Part shown: in pieces, positions 18,001 through 24,000 of the stretch | Layout of the letters: each line of letters opens with the position of its first letter | Numbering within the stretch: position 1 is the stretch's first letter | Origin: a virus | IMG/VR virus record: IMGVR_UViG_3300045988_150450 | Span: 1 to 50,933 of that record | Strand: one strand, 5' to 3' | Length of the DNA: 50,933 nucleotides | Program-made: the position numbers

Positions 18001-21000
18001 TTGGCTCGTAAATACTTGGCTCTCTTGAAATAAGCCGAACGAGTCTTTGTAAGCAGTTCTGCGGATTCAGCTGTGTCTACAATCACAGGATAGACCTTTC
18101 CGCAGCTCGGACACTGTAAAAGTGTAAGCTCTACATCGGTTGCTCCAGATCCTTTTATAAGAGTAACATGTTCTGTCCTCAAGGTCTTTTCGGTCAGTTC
18201 AATTTCTCTCTTGCAGATATCACAGATGATTTTTGTGTTTAAGTTCACGAAAGTACCCTCCTTTTCATAGTACAACCTTATTATACCTCTAAATCTACGA
18301 AAAGTAAAGCCTTATTTTTGCATGTCTTCGTACCAGTCATCTAGCTCAAAGTCTTCAGCTCCACCAACCCAATCAGCAACGCGGTCTGCAATATCCTCCA
18401 TAGAATCCGGAATAACAGCCTCAAAAGTACACATACCGTTCGGATGATCAAGCGGAAGATCATTTTTATCATATAGCTGTCCATCCCTATCTGCACAGAT
18501 AGGACACACTCTAGCACTATTAGAAGCATCCCATCTGTACTTTGTCACAAAGGGATTTTTTATCGTAGACCGAACAAATGCTTGCTGGTATGCATGTGAT
18601 ACCATGGTACGAGCAAGTCTTTGGGCATTGTAATCGATCTTCTTTCGGACTCCGGGATACACTTTAGACCAGTCCCAAGGTTTCTTTGCAGAAGGATCAA
18701 CATACTTTTCCAGATCCTTAGCAATATCATATGCACTCTTGTTCTCAGCAATACCTTTAGCAACTACAGTGTTTACATCAGATTGAATTTTCATGTGATC
18801 TTTCCAGATTGCCTTACTGAGTGTCCAGTCACCATCGTATAACTGCCCTGTAGCAACTGCTTTTACGACATCGTCTGGTACATGGGAGTACAGACCTTCA
18901 ACAGATAGGCCGATTTTTTGAGCAAAATCTAAAGTTGAACCTAGTACAGATTCAGCGACAGATTTCATGTTACCTTCAATCATATCCTGCAAACCTGAAG
19001 AAGCCTTATCCAGTTCCTCAAGTACCTGCTTCTTCAGGTTTTCAAGATAATACTTCTGCAAAGTAGCAGATGGAACATCAGGAATCTTTTTGATTCTTTG
19101 ATCAATATCTTTCGCTACACCTTTATAGATCTGCTCTATCTGTTTTTGTTGTTTTAGAGTGAGCTGAACTCGAGTACGTTCAGCAATATTCAAGTTCAGC
19201 TTTGCCATGTGTTACTCCTCTACCAATACAAAATAGATTCCAATAAGCTCATGAGGCAGGAATTGAAGCGTCACCTTGCCACCCGGCTCCTCGCCGATCC
19301 GCTCGCAGAGGTACAGGTTTCCGTCCTCTGGGTCTGTGTAGTAGAGTCCATAGGTGTACTCCATACCTTTTGCAGCTGGAATGGGGTCCTCCTGTGTGCC
19401 TGCGTGCTCCTCGTCAATTACCGTAAACATTGCCGGTGTTTTGTCCGGCTCCCAACCTTCCTGCGTCGTGTGCGCCTGTCCTTCGTTGACGCGGAACAGC
19501 CTTTCCATGCCATTGACCGGATACACAAGTCGGTCGCCCGCTTTGACGACCAGACCGGGTTCCCAGCGTCGGTAAAGCTCCATTGACTTTAGCGCGTCTG
19601 CATCCGTCAGACTAGCTGAAGCCTTGACGATATAGGGGCGCAATGCTCTGGCTCTTTCTGTATATGTCATCATTCCGCCTCCCCAAACATGATTCCTAGT
19701 GCCGTCTCAGCGTCTTGCAAACGTTCTTCTGTTGTCATCTCCAGCGTTGGAATCGGCGTTGCAGTCTCTGTGTAGGTATATGACGCGCCCTCAACATCGA
19801 CAGCCTCCGCATATTCCATGCCAGTCTCATTCTGCCGAATCATCATTCCTGCATCAGAATAGGTACGGTATAACTTTACACCATCACTACGCTGTGTATA
19901 AAATTCTCTTTGAATCATTTTACACCCCCACAATATGACTTGAATAAGTTGACCAGTTTGTAGCCGCTTTCCATTTGTCAACAAGTGCTGCCGGAACACG
20001 GATTTGACAGTCAGCGGGGATGTTGGTAAAAGTATTGGTGTATGCTAGTGTAGGAACCGTTGTATGAGCTGTGAAATCATAAAAAGCTACACCACGACAA
20101 TTATTGAATGCATATTGTCCAATACTTGTTACACGATCAGGTATTACAATTGATGCTAGAGAACGACAATTATAGAGCGCGGAATCTCCAATACTTGTTA
20201 TACTATCAGGTATTACAATTGATGAGAGAGAATAACAATTATTGAATGCATATTGTCTAATACTTATTACACTATCAGGTATTACAATTGATGCTAGAGA
20301 ATAGCAATATCCGAATGCATACATTTCAATACTTGTTACACTATTGGGTATTACAATTAATGAGAGAGAATAACAACCACTGAATGCATATTGTCCAATA
20401 CTCGTTACGCTATCAGGTATTGTAATTGATGCTAAAGACTGACAACTATAGAACGCGAAATCTCCAATACTTGTTACATCATTTCCAATCTCAATTTTCT
20501 GAACACAATTTTGATAAACATAATTTCGATTGTCAGCACTAGATGAATACCGAAGGATTGCACTACCATTATTCGATGAAGATTGTCCATAAAACCCTAT
20601 TGCCCCATTCACCGTCAGCTTTATGACATACTCGCCTGGTGCAGCATAAACATGATTCGGCGTCCATTTTACGGTTGTTGTGCTTGTCCCTGTCAATGTA
20701 TCTGGTGTGGTTCCATCACCCCAGTCCACGGTGACAGTTCCATTCGGACAAACGCCAAGCCTTGGAGATGTGCGTCCTTCTTCCAGACGGATATAGATAC
20801 GGGTCTTGCCATCATCCGTGATGTACATAGCGCCGACATTCATCTTGCGGTTTGTGGTCTTGAGGTCAGCCAGCGACCAGTTCCAGCCCTGACAAATGAG
20901 ACCCGCGTGTGATGGATAATCAGGTAGCGCGGTCTTTGTTGCCAGTTCTGCTAGCGTCCAAGACGTGACAATCGTACCATCGTAGTCATAGAATGTAATG

Positions 21001-24000
21001 TCTCCGGGGGCACCGGGCGTGAGGCTCCCACCGCTCCCACCAGTCTGAATGTTCCCAATGGCTGTCACAAATCCGTCCGGGTAGACAAGTGGGTCAGATG
21101 TGCCGCCCTTCGCGCGGATAGCTGATGCAACCTTTGTCAGGTCGGTTGTATTTGTTAAATATTCAGCCATCAGAAGCTCCCTCCATTCGCGTTTGCGATC
21201 GCAACAGCCGCCCATGCCCCATTTACGACGCGAAGAATTTTCCCGTTATCAGCGGCTGTAACAGCCGGAATCGTGGGGATATCCTCGCTTCTTGCCAGCG
21301 TTCCAAGCCATGCTATCCATGCCGTGCCGGTATATGAAACAGTTGGATACTGAGGGCTTTTTGTTGGAATCAGTGAACCGAGTGCGCCAAAGCCGAGAAC
21401 GATTGTATCCAAGATAGACGCTGCTGCTACAAGTGGCAATTCAAAAGCCACATTCACCGCAGGAAATTTTGTAACTGCATACACCACATAGCCCGCCGCA
21501 TAGGCCGCATACACTTCCGCTGCCGTTTTGTCAGCAGTTGCGGCGTATCCGCTGCCTGTAGGCGTCACTGTCACATAAAACGTGCTCTTCACTTCGCCAA
21601 TCGCGCCATTGACAGACGTGACGGGTGCTTCCTTCAGATAATCCTTGCCGGGTGTGGCAGCTGATACACCGCCCTTTCCATCGCCCTTCAGCAGATCAGA
21701 GGTTTTTGGCACAGGTGTAGTTAAGACCTTGCCCTCAACTGGATTCCCGGCTGCATCATGTGCAGTTACACCTTGTAACAAGGTATCCTCTGTCACAGTA
21801 TCTTGCGTGAGATCAAGCTTCACTTCGCCATTGATTTCAACCTTATTGACTGCCACAATCAAGCACCTACTTTCAGCGTCTGTCCTCCCTGAGCATTATC
21901 CGTATATGTAACAGGAATTGCAGCAACAGTAACCGAAGACAGATAATTGTAATCAGGGCTGTCAGGTGTTACCTCCTGCTGTGTAAAGGTCGGAGTGACT
22001 GTTTTTGCCTGAGGCTTTACACCTTCAGAACCGGACATAGAACCTTCAACACCGAGTAGTGTGATACCCTTGCGAATGTTGGCTGGAATCAGCTTTGCAG
22101 CCTCATCGGCATCGATAGCAGCATCCCCAGAACCGTCGTGAAAACCCATGGGGATGGGTACAGGAGTGCCTTTACTGGTGATTTTCAAGTGCTTTGCCCC
22201 ATTATTGGGCATTGTACCGGTCAGCTTGGATCCTGCCACATAAGCTGTCTTATCCTTTAGAATTTCTGCAGCAACAGCAGTTGCATCACTAGTATCAGCA
22301 TCCTTTGTACTTGTACCAACGATTGGTGCGCCTGATTTGTCATGGGCTTTAATGCCCTCAGCCAGCTTATCAGGAGTGATATCATCCTGTGTCAGGTCGA
22401 ATTTGACTTCTGTGCCAAGAATAAATTTGTTTACATATTTGTTAGCCATAGTATTCCTCCCCTATAATAAGTGTTTTTCCATCTGCTTCGTTAGATACTT
22501 CAAACTGAGGTATCTTTTTGACTGTGATATCTTTTGCTAAGACTTTGTTAGCAGTTTCCAGCACTGTGCTTTGTGCAACCTTTGGAGTAACCTCATATCC
22601 ACCGACATAAGGCTCACCTCCGGTATACACCATAAGTGCAGGCTCCACTTCTAACTCGAATTCTTGAGATTCTACAAAAAGCTCAATCATATCCAGCCTC
22701 CCTGAGAAGCTTGTCTACAGGAATTGGCTTTGCCTTTGTAGCTCTTGGATTCCCCTCCTTATCCACCCACATCAGCTGTACTTCAGTAGGGGATAGAGTG
22801 AGCTTCATAGCCTCAACATAAGGCAGAGTCGCAATGATCTTATTATCTACAAAAGTTGCTTCCAGCTCAATGTACTGTCCAAATTTTTGCTTGATAGACA
22901 GAATAATATTTGTAGCGCCTGTCATATCAAAGTCTTCCAGTTTACCTGTAGGAAGTCTGCTTCTAACTGTGAGTACAAGTCTATTTTGGATTTTTTGGAT
23001 CATAGCTTATTCCTCCTCGGTATCTGTATTATCAATCTCACCAGACTCCTGAGAAAGTTGCTCAGAACCAGGATTTGCATAGGAATCTTCCAAAATCTGC
23101 CTTTCGGCTGCAATCTGTCTCAGTTCCTCATCAGCTTCATCATCTGTGAGATTGCGCCATTTCTTCATGTAGGCTTTCTTAGACATTGTCTGGGCAGTCA
23201 CCTCAGCCAAATCAGTTTGCTTTTCTTCCTGCTCGTCTTCCGGGAGAGGATACTGGTTATCTACACGAATAGTGTAGTCAACTGTAGGCAGAGGCTCATC
23301 AATATACAGATTTACTGCCCCCGGATAAAGCCTGCAACCCTCAATAATGCATCTACCAAGGAATTCCAATGCAGGACGCCATTCGAGCATCTTCTCTTCA
23401 CATCGAACAATCAAGTCCCAATAGATGGCCTTGAGCGTTTTACCGGAGGAAACAACACCTTTCAAGGCTTCGGGGCTGACGTTGGGAACTGCACACTGCT
23501 CATACATGGTGTTTTTGATACGATCCAGTGTAGTACTCAGTGCAGTTGTATATGACATAGGGCTGTCCAAAACACCAACCTGAGCTGTACGATCCTGAGC
23601 TTGATTCTGATCCGTAGACAAATCCCAGAAAGCACCTGCGGATATGCTCAAGCCCTTTGTACTCTCAGGAGAAGCATCCACTGTGTACCGGATTGGGTTC
23701 ATTCCCTTACGTTCAGCATCCATATCAGCTGCTGCAAGACGGCTGTACCACATCTCATAATCCATGAGCTGCTCAATCTCAGATGTACCGATCAAATCAC
23801 CTGTGAGTCCATCATTTACGATGACCCAAGCAGGGATGAAATCAAATCTGGTTTTTGTATCGCTCTGTACTGTTTCCACCAAAGATCCCATACCATCATA
23901 GATCTCTTCGGAATACCAGCAAGCTCCGTTGTCCATCCAATACTTTTTCTTGTAAATGCGCTGATCAGCTTTGGATTTCTCATCGTTCAGACCATAAAAC

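What the first reader, a model, noticed from the sequence alone, without database searches (positions are those of the whole stretch)
19212..23003. A 3.8-kb fibre/adhesin-type island inserted between the portal and MuF genes, compositionally foreign
In SPP1-like head modules the MuF/gp7 gene normally follows the portal gene directly. Here seven genes intervene:
- two small proteins (22683..23003 and 22442..22690);
- two proteins sharing the N-terminal motif VK(F/L)DLTQD.(I/V)T.D.L..G(I/V).AHD..G.P(I/V).G (21859..22449 and 21170..21862);
- a 416-aa BspA-type LRR protein (19920..21170);
- an XkdX-like small protein (19670..19918);
- a 153-aa protein (19212..19673).

By eye, 19212-19900 and 20600-21900 are much more G+C-rich than the flanking head genes; I did not compute this. 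These gene types normally belong to tail-fibre cassettes. Inference: this is a horizontally acquired adhesin cassette. Its position suggests possible head display (head fibres or mucus/cell-surface adherence) rather than tail display.
Basis: partly seen in the sequence, partly recalled or inferred. Interest (0 to 1): 0.65.

Follow-up and report, generated by a model that had tools for sequence, protein, structure and literature searches.

The report
Relocated phage fibre cassette after portal
A gut-bacterial virus carries, between two head-assembly genes, a swappable seven-gene set for cell-binding fibres that other gut phages keep at the end of their tail genes, so its odd position reflects genome shuffling and does not show that the fibres sit on the head.

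Summary
Seven tightly packed minus-strand ORFs (19212-23003) lie between an SPP1-type portal gene and a MuF gene. One is a BspA-type LRR protein, and two share a 40-residue N-terminus.

Among portal relatives, 22 of 33 informative loci have portal and MuF adjacent. Others carry different cargo at this junction: the same fibre genes, a holin-endolysin cassette, or both together. The site is therefore a cargo hot spot.

The island is a mosaic of two exchangeable blocks:
- **Left block (I1-I2-I3 plus the I4 N-terminus):** a four-gene unit very common in human-gut Clostridia phages. In 54 of 80 sampled loci it sits at the tail-end/lysis junction, and in 12 it follows a portal gene.
- **Right block (I4 C-terminus, LRR, I6, I7):** precedes an endolysin in 48 of 80 loci.

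Supporting details:
- I3 is the one-repeat member of an unannotated ~88-residue repeat family with more than 8,700 clusters.
- I1 models as an Ig-like domain resembling fibre and BppU N-terminal domains.
- The LRR head alternates with DUF6273 on one 44-residue adaptor. Both heads also occur fused to this lineage's tail-tip anchor.

G+C is raised in parts of the island, but the capsid genes are equally G+C-rich.

Best reading: a horizontally exchanged accessory tail-fibre/receptor-binding cassette at an unusual site. Head display is unsupported, and neck display is not excluded.

The parts
23007..24536 (-). Portal gene (509 aa). Upstream flank of the island; its stop lies 3 nt before the I1 start.
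   Evidence: PF05133 E=2.8e-27, phrog_64. 35 relatives found.
22683..23003 (-). I1, 106 aa: small Ig-like beta-sandwich, first gene of the conserved four-gene unit. Candidate lineage-specific anchor.
   Evidence: AF2 pLDDT 86 with a 77-sequence alignment. BFVD Foldseek hits to 'BppU N-terminal domain' and tail-fibre proteins, E 2.5e-4 to 3e-3, TM 0.55-0.68. PDB hits only generic. No Pfam or PDB sequence match. Identity tracks the portal: 64% to L002, 41% to L017, 12-21% to the other classes.
22442..22690 (-). I2, 82 aa: second conserved gene of the unit, always directly upstream of I3. Function unknown.
   Evidence: phrog_31538, E=1e-13. An I2-like ORF precedes I3 in all 80 I3 loci.
21859..22449 (-). 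I3, 196 aa: N-terminal adaptor (aa 1-46), one ~88-aa repeat (aa ~51-140) and a C-terminal cap (aa 142-196). It is the minimal member of a variable-length repeat (shaft-like) protein family.
   Evidence: At least 7,835 hits in the word-index search. 8,716 50%-identity clusters at E<=1e-3, many 500-2,100 aa with 5-20 tandem copies of aa 51-140. P0227 has the same N-terminus, five repeats and the same cap. No Pfam or PDB match; PHROGs 13589 and 38337 are 'unknown function'. The monomer AF2 model is unusable, pLDDT 38.
21753..22534 (-). Exchange block 1: 3' end of I2, all of I3 and the first ~105 nt of I4.
   Evidence: blastn gives 89% to L037, 86% to L048 and 84-85% to the L038/L043 classes, all with unrelated portals or a tail context, versus 72% to the closest relative L002.
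21170..21862 (-). I4, 230 aa (TTG start; 228 aa in public gene calls). Its N-terminal adaptor (aa 5-44) is paralogous to that of I3. The body is variable between phages. The C-terminal 33 aa are conserved together with the next gene.
   Evidence: BLASTP I3 vs I4: 53% over 40 aa, E=4e-11. In all 80 I3 loci the gene after I3 shares only this N-terminus. The C-terminal 33 aa are 76-88% identical in many I7 loci. No Pfam or PHROG match.
19920..21170 (-). I5, 416 aa: 44-aa N-terminal adaptor (21039-21170), PKD-like stretch (about 20586-20738) and BspA-type LRR head (about 19923-20555). Predicted binding subunit.
   Evidence: PF13306 E=1.5e-47. PDB LRR_5 structures E=1.8e-50. The adaptor alone is 82-93% conserved in 28 loci whose body differs. 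Of 32 adaptor-bearing proteins, 23 carry DUF6273 and 9 carry LRR_5.
20097..20478 (-). Array of 5.5 tandem 69-nt units encoding the 23-residue LRR units. This accounts for the A+T-rich dip inside the island.
   Evidence: TRF: period 69, 77% matches. Self-blastn. G+C is 35.2% for 19901-20599.
19670..19918 (-). I6, 82 aa: small protein that travels with the LRR gene. Not XkdX by any test run here.
   Evidence: No Pfam or PHROG match. 84-90% identical copies follow LRR genes in other phages.
19212..19673 (-). I7, 153 aa: conserved last gene of the fibre module, with a weak CBM5/12-like motif. Its stop lies 3 nt before the MuF start.
   Evidence: phrog_27545 E=3.5e-43. CBM_5_12 E=0.0096, below the cut-off. 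The positional counterpart in L224 (146 aa, directly before MuF) has a recorded CBM_5_12 hit. An endolysin follows within 2.5 kb in 48 of 80 loci, and MuF follows in 14 of 80.
19246..21217 (-). Exchange block 2: I4 C-terminus, LRR gene, I6 and I7.
   Evidence: 83.4% nt identity to MT835551.1, where the block also lies between a portal and a MuF.
18312..19208 (-). MuF gene (298 aa). Downstream flank of the island.
   Evidence: PF04233 E=5.9e-10, phrog_1657 E=3.6e-62.
7363..8247 (-). orf294: the lineage's own tail-tip protein after Dit and Tal. The N-terminal ~220 aa are conserved and the C-terminus varies between relatives. Context for where LRR and DUF6273 heads are normally mounted.
   Evidence: Relatives L120-L123 carry 294, 545 and 736 aa versions. 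The L123 C-terminus is homologous to the DUF6273-type body, BLASTP 1e-22. phrog_18805 matches the orf294 N-terminus at profile positions 1-180 and the LRR protein at 241-357.
6867..7361 (-). orf164: tail-end gene after orf294. Its longer homologue in the closest relative contains repeats of the I3 C-cap motif.
   Evidence: hhalign of the I3 family against the L120 248-aa protein: probability 93%, E=3.6e-7 over I3 aa 142-178. orf164 aa 1-105 are 45% identical to that protein. Direct BLASTP of I3 against orf164 is not significant.

Best explanation
The island is an accessory tail-fibre/receptor-binding cassette of a temperate-type siphophage of human-gut Clostridia, probably Oscillospiraceae or relatives. 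It sits at an unusual place in the late operon.

**Two exchangeable blocks**
- Block 1 is a widespread four-gene unit. I1 is an Ig-like domain that co-varies with the phage backbone and is the candidate anchor. I2 is a small protein of unknown role. I3 is a one-repeat member of an ~88-residue repeat shaft family. I4 shares the I3 N-terminal adaptor and has a variable body.
- Block 2 is a distal 'head' set. It comprises a conserved 44-residue adaptor fused to a PKD-like stretch and a BspA-type LRR domain, then two small proteins, I6 and I7. I7 has a CBM5/12-like motif and could be a carbohydrate-binding or assembly factor.

**Proposed mechanism**
- The genes are co-transcribed with the head genes. 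They have 3-nt junctions on both sides and no convincing internal promoter or terminator.
- The products are inferred to assemble into side fibres on the tail tip, next to the phage's own Dit-Tal-orf294-orf164 tip.
- The LRR domain is inferred to bind a bacterial cell-surface ligand, widening or strengthening adsorption.
- The conserved N-terminal adaptors would serve two roles: docking interfaces in the fibre, and homology arms for recombination. That would explain the mosaic identity pattern.

**Why it is here**
In this phage lineage the portal|MuF boundary accepts the 'host-interaction' block (fibres and/or holin-endolysin) that normally ends the tail module.

**Shown versus inferred**
- Shown: gene content, mosaicism, hot spot, synteny elsewhere, domain swaps.
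- Inferred: virion incorporation, tail location, order of assembly, ligand.
For: 1. **Cargo hot spot.** Of 35 portal relatives, 22 have portal and MuF adjacent. Others carry I1-I3 cassettes (L002, L017), endolysin or holin-endolysin (L005, L006, L009, L036), or other genes at the same junction. L228/L229 have portal-I1-I2-I3-X-holin-endolysin-MuF. That is the canonical tail-end order, moved as a block.
2. **Usual position of the I3 unit.** In 80 sampled loci, tail genes lie upstream in 36 and a lysis gene lies downstream in a further 18. A portal lies upstream in 12. In the annotated complete genome PV036438 the order is tail proteins, I1-like, I2-like, I3-like, hypothetical, holin, endolysin.
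3. **Usual position of I7.** An endolysin follows within 2.5 kb in 48 of 80 loci. I7-like domains also lie in the tail-end region of Dulem virus 34.
4. **Interchangeable heads.** On the conserved 44-aa adaptor, 23 proteins carry DUF6273 and 9 carry LRR_5. Both heads also occur fused to the orf294-type N-terminus that follows Tal: L123 and phrog_18805.
5. **I1 fold.** Ig-like, with BFVD matches to BppU N-terminal domain and tail-fibre proteins.
6. **I3 architecture.** It has the repeat architecture of variable-length fibrous proteins. Its C-cap motif recurs in the tail-end protein of the closest relative.
7. **Modular exchange.** Block boundaries lie in the conserved adaptors.
8. **Accessory role.** Relatives without the cassette keep the Dit-Tal-orf294 tip.
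9. **L038-class phages.** The only genes found between the tape-measure/487-aa tip genes and the next block are this unit.
Against: - No direct evidence places any of the seven proteins in the virion, or on the tail rather than the neck or head.
- A cassette directly after a portal gene recurs in at least three portal lineages: the window lineage, the L043 class and the MT835551 lineage, which contributes 14 loci. This could reflect function rather than a recombination hot spot.
- Tail-end synteny does not prove tail location. In TP901-1 the neck passage structure gene also lies between the baseplate and lysis genes.
- The BppU-like resemblance of I1 is by fold only. It rests on predicted structures with low TM scores (0.55-0.68). 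Pfam BppU_N was not hit, and hhalign to TP901-1 BppU was negative.
- I3 could not be modelled, so 'shaft' is inferred from repeat architecture alone.
- The locus samples are biased towards close relatives and over-represent a few lineages, so the counts are descriptive only.
Confidence: 0.6

Rival explanations
1. Neck or head display. The cassette would build collar/whisker-type fibres at the head-tail junction, like the lactococcal neck passage structure, or fibres on the capsid. These would tether the virion to bacterial surfaces or mucus.
For: - The cassette directly follows the portal gene in at least three portal lineages. In the MT835551 lineage it does so in all 14 sampled members.
- I1 co-varies with the portal and backbone.
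- The PDB fold search lists Ig-like neck and connector proteins among weak hits: 9mt4_G/H, 9c39_I and 8gtd_M, E 0.025-0.1.
- The TP901-1 NPS shows that a neck structure can be encoded at the tail-end/lysis junction. The synteny evidence therefore fits a neck structure too.
- The window phage already has a tail-tip protein of its own.
Against: - The portal|MuF site also carries lysis cassettes, so position says little about virion location.
- Both head types (LRR_5, DUF6273) are found fused to the tail-tip anchor that follows Tal.
- No island protein matched head-decoration or head-fibre families.
- hhalign of the I1 family against the TP901-1 NPS was negative.
- The PDB neck hits are generic Ig-fold similarities at E>0.01.
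- In L038-class phages the unit is the only fibre candidate found after the tip genes.
Confidence: 0.2
2. Main receptor-binding apparatus. The cassette would be the phage's primary RBP module, simply relocated. orf294 and orf164 would be structural tip proteins without receptor specificity.
For: - The window orf294 has only a short C-terminal domain (294 aa), whereas relatives have 545-736 aa versions with Ig repeats or DUF6273.
- The MT835551 lineage has a minimal tail end: TMP-like, 653 aa, 349 aa, then lysis. Its only fibre-like genes are after the portal.
Against: - Close relatives lack any portal-proximal cassette (L003, L004, L008, L011 and others). They keep the same Dit-Tal-orf294 arrangement. 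This argues that the tip genes suffice.
- L120, from the same contig as L002, has the same 294-aa protein together with a different cassette.
Confidence: 0.12
3. Non-virion cargo (a moron). The LRR protein would be expressed from the prophage as a bacterial surface adhesin, or would have some other lysogenic-conversion function.
For: - BspA-type LRR proteins are best known as bacterial cell-surface adhesins. The closest solved structures include 'cell surface protein', TpLRR and PcpA.
- The junction accepts unrelated cargo.
Against: - The genes are packed with 3-nt or overlapping junctions inside the late operon. No convincing promoter-terminator pair was found.
- By reading the sequence, the LRR protein has no N-terminal hydrophobic signal sequence or wall anchor.
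- It carries a phage-specific 44-aa adaptor shared with DUF6273 proteins in fibre cassettes.
Confidence: 0.04
4. Assembly artefact. The island would be a chimeric join in a metagenomic contig.
For: The window appears to derive from metagenomic assembly, and the region is mosaic.
Against: - The same layout occurs on two public contigs that carry the identical I3 protein.
- Portal-I1-I2-I3-...-MuF arrangements occur in many independent samples: L002, L017 and L224-L230.
- Junctions are in-frame, tight gene boundaries.
Confidence: 0.02

Closest known systems
Modular receptor-binding / baseplate-peripheral modules of Gram-positive siphophages (for example Lactococcus TP901-1/Tuc2009 BppU-BppA-BppL after Dit and Tal)
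   Same: - Several small genes encode an Ig-like anchor-type domain, connector proteins and a distal binding subunit.
- N-termini are conserved and C-terminal heads are interchangeable.
- In most homologous cassettes the genes lie after the tail-tip genes and before holin and endolysin.
   Different: - No sequence relationship to BppU or BppL.
- Here the cassette lies between the portal and MuF genes, not after Tal.
- The shaft is built from an unannotated ~88-aa repeat.
- The heads are LRR_5 or DUF6273, not the lactococcal RBP fold.
Neck passage structure (NPS, collar-whisker) of Lactococcus phages TP901-1 and Tuc2009
   Same: - An accessory, variable fibre-like structure.
- Encoded next to the lysis genes in TP901-1.
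- Presumably dispensable, as the cassette appears to be in this lineage.
   Different: - One large protein (667 aa) rather than a multi-gene set.
- No detectable similarity to I1.
- A neck location is not shown for the island proteins.
Tail-fibre gene mosaicism with conserved N-terminal adaptors (anchor-branch tailspike systems, T-even gp37/gp38 exchanges; from established knowledge)
   Same: - Recombination boundaries fall inside conserved adaptor segments.
- Distal domains are swapped between unrelated phages.
   Different: - Different protein families and hosts.
- The cassette itself changes its position in the genome: tail end, after the portal, or upstream of TerL.
BspA-type LRR (LRR_5) surface proteins of gut and oral bacteria
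   Same: Strong domain homology: PF13306 E=1.5e-47, PDB 4fs7 E=1.8e-50.
   Different: - Here the domain is mounted on a phage-specific 44-aa adaptor and a PKD-like stretch.
- It lies inside a late structural operon.
- It lacks a secretion signal.
Morons / cargo hot spots in phage late operons
   Same: A single intergenic boundary is empty in most relatives and occupied by different cargo in others.
   Different: - The cargo consists of late-function modules (fibres, lysis), not host-fitness genes.
- No autonomous promoter-terminator pair is evident.

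Membership tests
SPP1-type head module (portal gp6 followed by MuF/gp7) | Portal of the SPP1 Gp6 family | tested here: met
   PF05133 E=2.8e-27 for 23007-24536.
SPP1-type head module (portal gp6 followed by MuF/gp7) | MuF-family minor head protein directly downstream of the portal | tested here: not met
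   MuF is present (PF04233, E=5.9e-10), but 3.8 kb and seven genes intervene. The two genes are adjacent in 22 relatives.
BspA-type LRR proteins (Pfam LRR_5) | Match above the Pfam gathering score, with ~23-residue repeats | tested here: met
   161 bits against a cut-off of 27.7. 69-nt tandem units. Solved LRR_5 structures E=1.8e-50.
XkdX family (PBSX small protein), as claimed for 19670-19918 | Sequence match to the family profile | tested here: not met
   No Pfam family at E<=5 and no PHROG.
BppU N-terminal Ig-like domain (baseplate upper protein) | Sequence match to the Pfam BppU_N profile or to TP901-1 BppU | tested here: not met
   None of 14 I1-family members matched at E<=1. hhalign to TP901-1 ORF48: probability 0.2%.
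BppU N-terminal Ig-like domain (baseplate upper protein) | Same fold | tested here: inconclusive
   The pLDDT-86 model hits BFVD entries named 'BppU N-terminal domain' (E=2.5e-4, TM 0.60) and tail-fibre proteins. The PDB search gives only generic Ig/CBM folds at E>=0.015.
Siphophage tail-fibre / RBP cassette | Encoded downstream of Dit/Tal and upstream of the lysis genes | tested here: not met
   Not met in the window, where the cassette lies between the portal and MuF. Met for homologous cassettes in 54 of 80 I3 loci, 48 of 80 I7 loci and PV036438.
Siphophage tail-fibre / RBP cassette | Conserved N-terminal attachment segment with interchangeable C-terminal binding domains | tested here: met
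   The I3/I4 adaptor is conserved in all 80 loci while downstream bodies vary. The 44-aa adaptor carries DUF6273 (23) or LRR_5 (9).
Siphophage tail-fibre / RBP cassette | Products present in the virion at the tail tip and needed for adsorption | not testable with these tools
   Needs proteomics, microscopy and genetics.
Head decoration / head-fibre proteins (lambda gpD, T4 Hoc, phi29 gp8.5 types) | Sequence similarity of any island protein to such families | tested here: not met
   No Pfam or PHROG head-decoration hit for I1-I7. A weak gpD-like hit (E=0.004) belongs to a different gene, 16740-17132. The C-terminus of one variable partner in another phage (L038, 384 aa) weakly matches a Hoc-like PHROG, E=1.3e-7.
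Moron (autonomously expressed cargo) | Own promoter and terminator flanking the insert | tested here: inconclusive
   The consensus scan found no terminator-like site at either boundary on the coding strand. Promoter-like matches occur only inside coding sequence. Junctions are 3 nt. A consensus scan cannot prove absence.
DGR-diversified receptor-binding protein | A template repeat matching part of the target gene elsewhere in the genome | tested here: not met
   Self-blastn of 19212-23003 against the window found only the internal LRR tandem repeats.
Lactococcal neck passage structure | Sequence similarity to TP901-1 NPS | tested here: not met
   hhalign of the I1 family against ORF51: probability 0.2%. 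The other island proteins were not compared.

The most novel reading that the evidence does not exclude
The portal-proximal position may be functional. In this reading, I1, which co-varies with the portal lineage, docks a fibre at the neck or capsid. The fibre would be built from the unannotated ~88-residue repeat and tipped by LRR or DUF6273 heads. Many gut Clostridia siphophages would then carry a previously unrecognised class of swappable collar or head fibres for adhering to bacterial surfaces or mucus. Independently of location, the I3 repeat may be a new fibre fold. It has more than 8,700 clusters and no Pfam or PDB counterpart.
Probability: 0.18. Interest if true: 0.7.

Novelty: new variant of a known kind. 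Interest (0 to 1): 0.45.

Why it matters
- **Genome architecture.** In a common group of human-gut phages, the 'host-interaction' genes (fibres, and in sister phages the lysis genes) are not tied to the end of the tail module. They can sit at the portal|MuF boundary. Annotation pipelines and host-range predictors that look for receptor-binding proteins only after the tape-measure gene would miss them.
- **Uncharacterised building blocks.** The analysis defines very abundant fibre parts that no library names. These are a four-gene unit, an ~88-residue repeat with more than 8,700 clusters, and a 44-residue adaptor carrying either LRR_5 or DUF6273 heads. They are candidates for structural study and for engineering the host range of gut phages.
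- **If the fibres prove to be on the neck or head.** That would reveal a new adhesion device on gut siphophages.

Tried and rejected
- **Composition as proof of foreign origin: rejected.** Parts of the island are G+C-rich, but the capsid block is equally deviant. Codon-usage distances overlap those of the native late genes.
- **XkdX identity of I6: rejected**.
- **Sequence-based identification of I1, I2, I3, I4 and orf294 against Pfam, PHROGs and the PDB.** Only 'unknown function' PHROGs or nothing were found.
- **AlphaFold model of I3: unusable.** The 42-sequence alignment was shallow (80-95% identity) and gave pLDDT 38, so no fold search was run on it.
- **Foldseek of I1 against the PDB:** only generic Ig/CBM similarities.
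- **hhalign of the I1 family against TP901-1 BppU and NPS: negative**.
- **BLASTP of I3 against orf164: not significant**. The link appears only through the longer homologue in L120.
- **DGR targeting: rejected**.
- **Autonomous moron expression: no support**.
- **Host assignment from the genome collection.** Only nine MAG contigs were found. Two are Oscillospiraceae, one Lachnospiraceae and one Clostridiales. Several bins are implausible, so the host is only roughly placed.
- **Literature searches** (Heliusvirales, BspA-like phage proteins, portal/MuF insertions) found no description of this cassette or of its position.
- **Exact-sequence look-ups of I4 and the LRR protein** found nothing on record. 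The I3 look-up succeeded.

Full report
**1. What is in the sequence**

The window is a siphophage-type genome with its late genes on the minus strand:
- TerS 26224-26904, TerL 24741-26051, portal 23007-24536
- seven ORFs, 19212-23003
- MuF 18312-19208, scaffold 17153-17818, major capsid 15662-16705
- tail tube 13335-13925, tape measure 10246-12711, Dit 9353-10234, Tal 8252-9352
- orf294 7363-8247, orf164 6867-7361, holin-like genes, endolysin 5527-6237

They are packed tightly. The portal stop is 3 nt from the I1 start, the I7 stop is 3 nt from the MuF start, and neighbouring ORFs inside the island overlap or abut. Independent gene calls on a public 58-kb contig that encodes the identical I3 protein show the same layout. 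An assembly artefact is therefore unlikely.

**2.

- The 416-aa protein is a BspA-type LRR protein (PF13306, E=1.5e-47) with a weak PKD-like stretch. It has close relatives among solved LRR_5 structures.
- The shared N-terminus of the 196-aa (I3) and 230-aa (I4) proteins is significant: 53% over 40 residues, E=4e-11.
- The 'XkdX-like' label for the 82-aa protein I6 has no support.
- G+C is raised in the two named stretches (52.4% and 52.0%, against 42.5% for the window; z=2.6 and 3.0). The LRR repeats are A+T-rich (35.2%) and the left quarter of the island is average.
- The capsid block 15284-17132 is equally G+C-rich (51.7%, z=3.3). Codon-usage distances of the island genes fall inside the range of the other late genes.
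- Composition alone therefore does not mark the island as foreign.

**3. Relatives: the portal|MuF junction is a cargo hot spot**

Thirty-five IMG/VR loci encode portals 44-86% identical to the window's. Their state at the junction is as follows:

| State at portal\|MuF | Loci |
|---|---|
| MuF follows within 20-296 bp | 22 |
| I1-I2-I3 homologues plus a different distal protein | L002 (4.4 kb), L017 (2.4 kb) |
| Endolysin alone | L005 |
| Holin plus endolysin | L006, L009, L036 |
| A Lys-rich 161-aa protein | L007 |
| A 942-aa fibre-like protein directly after the portal | L023 (no MuF hit) |

Further members of the lineage came from exact-protein look-ups:
- L224/L225 have portal-I1-I2-I3, four or five further genes, then MuF.
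- L228/L229 have portal-I1-I2-I3-X-holin-endolysin-MuF.

The L228/L229 order matches the canonical tail-end order of these phages, placed as a block between the portal and MuF. Position at this junction therefore says nothing about where a product sits in the virion.

**4. The island is a mosaic of two exchangeable blocks**

*Block 1 (21753-22534).*
- It covers the end of I2, all of I3 and the first ~105 nt of I4.
- It is 84-89% nt identical to phages whose portals or contexts are unrelated, but only 72% to the closest relative L002, whose portal is 80% identical at the nt level.

*Block 2 (19246-21217).*
- It covers the last 33 codons of I4, the LRR gene, I6 and I7.
- It is 83% identical to faecal phage MT835551. 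In that phage the block also lies between a portal and a MuF.
- The window portal and MuF gave no tblastn hit there, and TerL gave only a weak one: 24% identity, E=1e-6.
- In contrast, I1 tracks the portal phylogeny: 64% to L002, 41% to L017, and 12-21% to the other classes.

Horizontal exchange is thus well supported by sequence identity patterns, not by composition.

**5. Where the same genes lie in other phages**

*I3 unit.*
- I3 has at least 144 relatives in IMG/VR.
- In all 80 loci retrieved, the order is I2-like, I3-like, then a protein sharing only the I4 N-terminus. An I1-like ORF of about 100 aa usually precedes I2.

Using marker proteins from annotated loci, the I3 contexts are:

| Context of the I3 unit | Loci (of 80) |
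|---|---|
| Tail genes upstream | 36 |
| Lysis gene downstream, upstream not identified | 18 |
| Portal upstream | 12 |
| Between a lysin-like gene and TerL (L106) | 1 |
| Unclassified | 13 |

- The annotated complete genome of Oscillospiraceae phage NatCom_27610 has three 'tail protein' genes and two hypothetical genes. Next come the I1-like, I2-like and I3-like genes and one more hypothetical gene, followed by holin and endolysin.

*I7 module.*
- Among 80 I7 loci, 48 have an endolysin within 2.5 kb downstream.
- Fourteen are followed by MuF. All 14 belong to the MT835551 lineage, where the cassette sits between the portal and MuF in every sampled member.
- That lineage has a minimal tail end: TMP-like, 653 aa, 349 aa, then lysis.

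These samples are biased towards close relatives and a few lineages, so the counts are descriptive.

**6. What the proteins are**

*I1.* It models confidently (pLDDT 86) as an Ig-like beta-sandwich.
- Against predicted viral structures it matches proteins named 'BppU N-terminal domain' and several tail-fibre proteins, with E 2.5e-4 to 3e-3.
- Against the PDB only generic Ig/CBM folds appear.
- Sequence tests for BppU membership failed.

*I3.* It is the minimal member of a very large family.
- The exhaustive search finds 8,716 clusters at E<=1e-3. Many are 500-2,100 aa long and contain 5-20 tandem copies of I3 residues ~51-140.
- P0227 has the I3 N-terminus, five repeats and the I3 C-terminal cap.
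- By eye, in the P0225/P0227 sequences, the N-terminal adaptor shared by I3 and I4 looks like a degenerate first half of this repeat. This was not tested.
- The repeat has no Pfam model and no solved structure by sequence, and its PHROGs are 'unknown function'.
- The monomer model failed, pLDDT 38.
- The I3 C-cap motif recurs in the 248-aa protein encoded after the tail-tip gene in the closest relative (hhalign 93%, E=3.6e-7). The window's orf164 is the shorter homologue of that protein.

*LRR protein.* Its first 44 residues are a conserved adaptor.
- Thirty-nine I7 loci carry the adaptor. Of 32 such proteins scanned, 23 carry a DUF6273 body and 9 carry LRR_5.
- Both bodies also occur fused to the orf294-type N-terminus, the protein that follows Tal in this lineage. 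L123 carries DUF6273 (BLASTP 1e-22). phrog_18805 combines the orf294 N-terminus with LRR.
- This is the strongest indication that LRR and DUF6273 are receptor-binding heads used at tail tips.

*I7.* It is the conserved last gene of the module and has a CBM5/12-like motif. The match is below threshold here. Its positional counterpart in L224, the 146-aa last gene before MuF, has a recorded CBM_5_12 hit.

*PHROG labels.* Labels of 'head protein' for orf294-type families should not be trusted. The TP901-1 RefSeq record labels the baseplate proteins Tal and BppU as 'minor head protein'.

**7. Most likely mechanism**

The cassette is best read as an accessory tail-fibre/receptor-binding module.
- It is co-transcribed with the head genes.
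- I1 (and perhaps I2) would be the backbone-specific anchor.
- I3 would be a short shaft, I4 a connector, and the LRR protein the distal binding head.
- I6 and I7 would be assembly or carbohydrate-binding accessories.
- The conserved adaptors explain both the docking and the recombination boundaries.
- Relatives lacking the cassette keep the Dit-Tal-orf294 tip. The cassette is therefore probably accessory.

What is shown: gene content, mosaic exchange, the hot spot, synteny elsewhere and head swapping. What is inferred: virion incorporation, tail location, assembly order and ligand. I put this reading at about 0.6.

**8. Rivals**

- **Neck or head display (about 0.2).** It is not excluded. A cassette directly after a portal gene recurs in at least three portal lineages. 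I1 co-varies with the portal. The TP901-1 NPS shows that a neck structure can be encoded at the tail-end/lysis junction. Against it are the lysis cassettes at the same site, the fusion of both head types to the tail-tip anchor, and the lack of any head-decoration similarity.
- **Relocated primary RBP module (about 0.12).**
- **Non-virion moron (about 0.04).** There is no promoter-terminator pair and no signal sequence.
- **Assembly artefact (about 0.02).**

**9. Novelty and verdict**

The kind of system is known: a modular, horizontally exchanged fibre/RBP cassette with conserved adaptors. Three things are unusual:
- its position at the portal|MuF boundary, a junction that also takes lysis cassettes in this lineage
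- the mobility of the whole 'fibre plus lysis' block within the late operon
- the size of the unannotated protein families involved

I found no description of this in the searchable literature. I rate it a new variant of a known kind, with interest 0.45. Acquisition is supported on better grounds than composition. The head-display inference is not supported.

Noticed in passing
window 18312-19208; L224 7903-9310, L225 6165-8003, L228 7715-9523: The window's MuF is only 298 aa. In several close relatives MuF is 602-612 aa and carries a C-terminal ADP-ribosyltransferase toxin domain (PF03496). This fits the ~2-kb 'gap' between the MuF hit and the next gene in many relatives. The window phage appears to have lost, or never had, the toxin domain.
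   Followed up: partly
window 15284-17132: The block holding a 121-aa SAP-like protein, the major capsid gene and a 130-aa protein is as G+C-rich (51.7%, z=3.3; GC3 0.56-0.59) as the richest parts of the island. The backbone itself is therefore compositionally mosaic.
   Followed up: partly
window 16740-17132: The 130-aa protein between the scaffold and the major capsid genes has a weak lambda gpD (head decoration) match, PF02924 E=0.004. It is conserved next to the capsid gene in all relatives. It is a candidate decoration protein separate from the island.
   Followed up: no
window 3008-4379; L122 13011-14485: Downstream of the lysis genes lie three conserved genes. One is a Q/N/M-rich 157-aa protein, one a 71-aa protein, and one a 218-aa Gly-rich protein with a Cys-rich C-terminus (CCCETNRNID motif). 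Homologues occur in the same order in relative L122. No function was identified.
   Followed up: no
L106 6983-15034: A relative with a 58% identical portal has portal and MuF adjacent. It carries the I1-I2-I3 unit, preceded by an M23/lysin-like 456-aa protein, between a TerS-like hit and TerL. This is a third genomic position for the unit.
   Followed up: partly
L023 5365-8193: In another portal relative the gene directly after the portal encodes a 942-aa protein with an Ig-like-looking N-terminus. This is a different fibre-like cargo at the same site. No MuF hit was found within the 8.3-kb contig.
   Followed up: no
L227 1140-1793; L070 8563-9039: Homing-endonuclease-type genes lie next to these modules. 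L227 has a GIY-YIG (weak Pfam hit)/NUMOD3 gene beside a shortened TerL, in a relative of the window phage. The L070 class has an HNH endonuclease just upstream of the I1-I3 unit. These are possible drivers of local recombination.
   Followed up: no
window 17847-18275: A 142-aa protein with two CxxC pairs (zinc-ribbon-like; phrog_1315, unknown function) sits between MuF and the scaffold gene. It is conserved at this position in many relatives.
   Followed up: no
L002 11853-15056: In the closest relative, the distal genes of the cassette encode a 742-aa protein and a 319-aa protein. The 742-aa protein has the I4-type N-terminus followed by about ten 'YSTDG(I/T)(N/T)W' repeats, which look like beta-propeller repeats. 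Neither has a PHROG match.
   Followed up: partly
L222 (TP901-1) 6723-10391: The RefSeq record of TP901-1 labels the experimentally defined baseplate proteins Tal (ORF47) and BppU (ORF48) as 'minor head protein'. This is a likely source of misleading 'head protein' labels in derived family libraries such as the PHROGs that match orf294.
   Followed up: no
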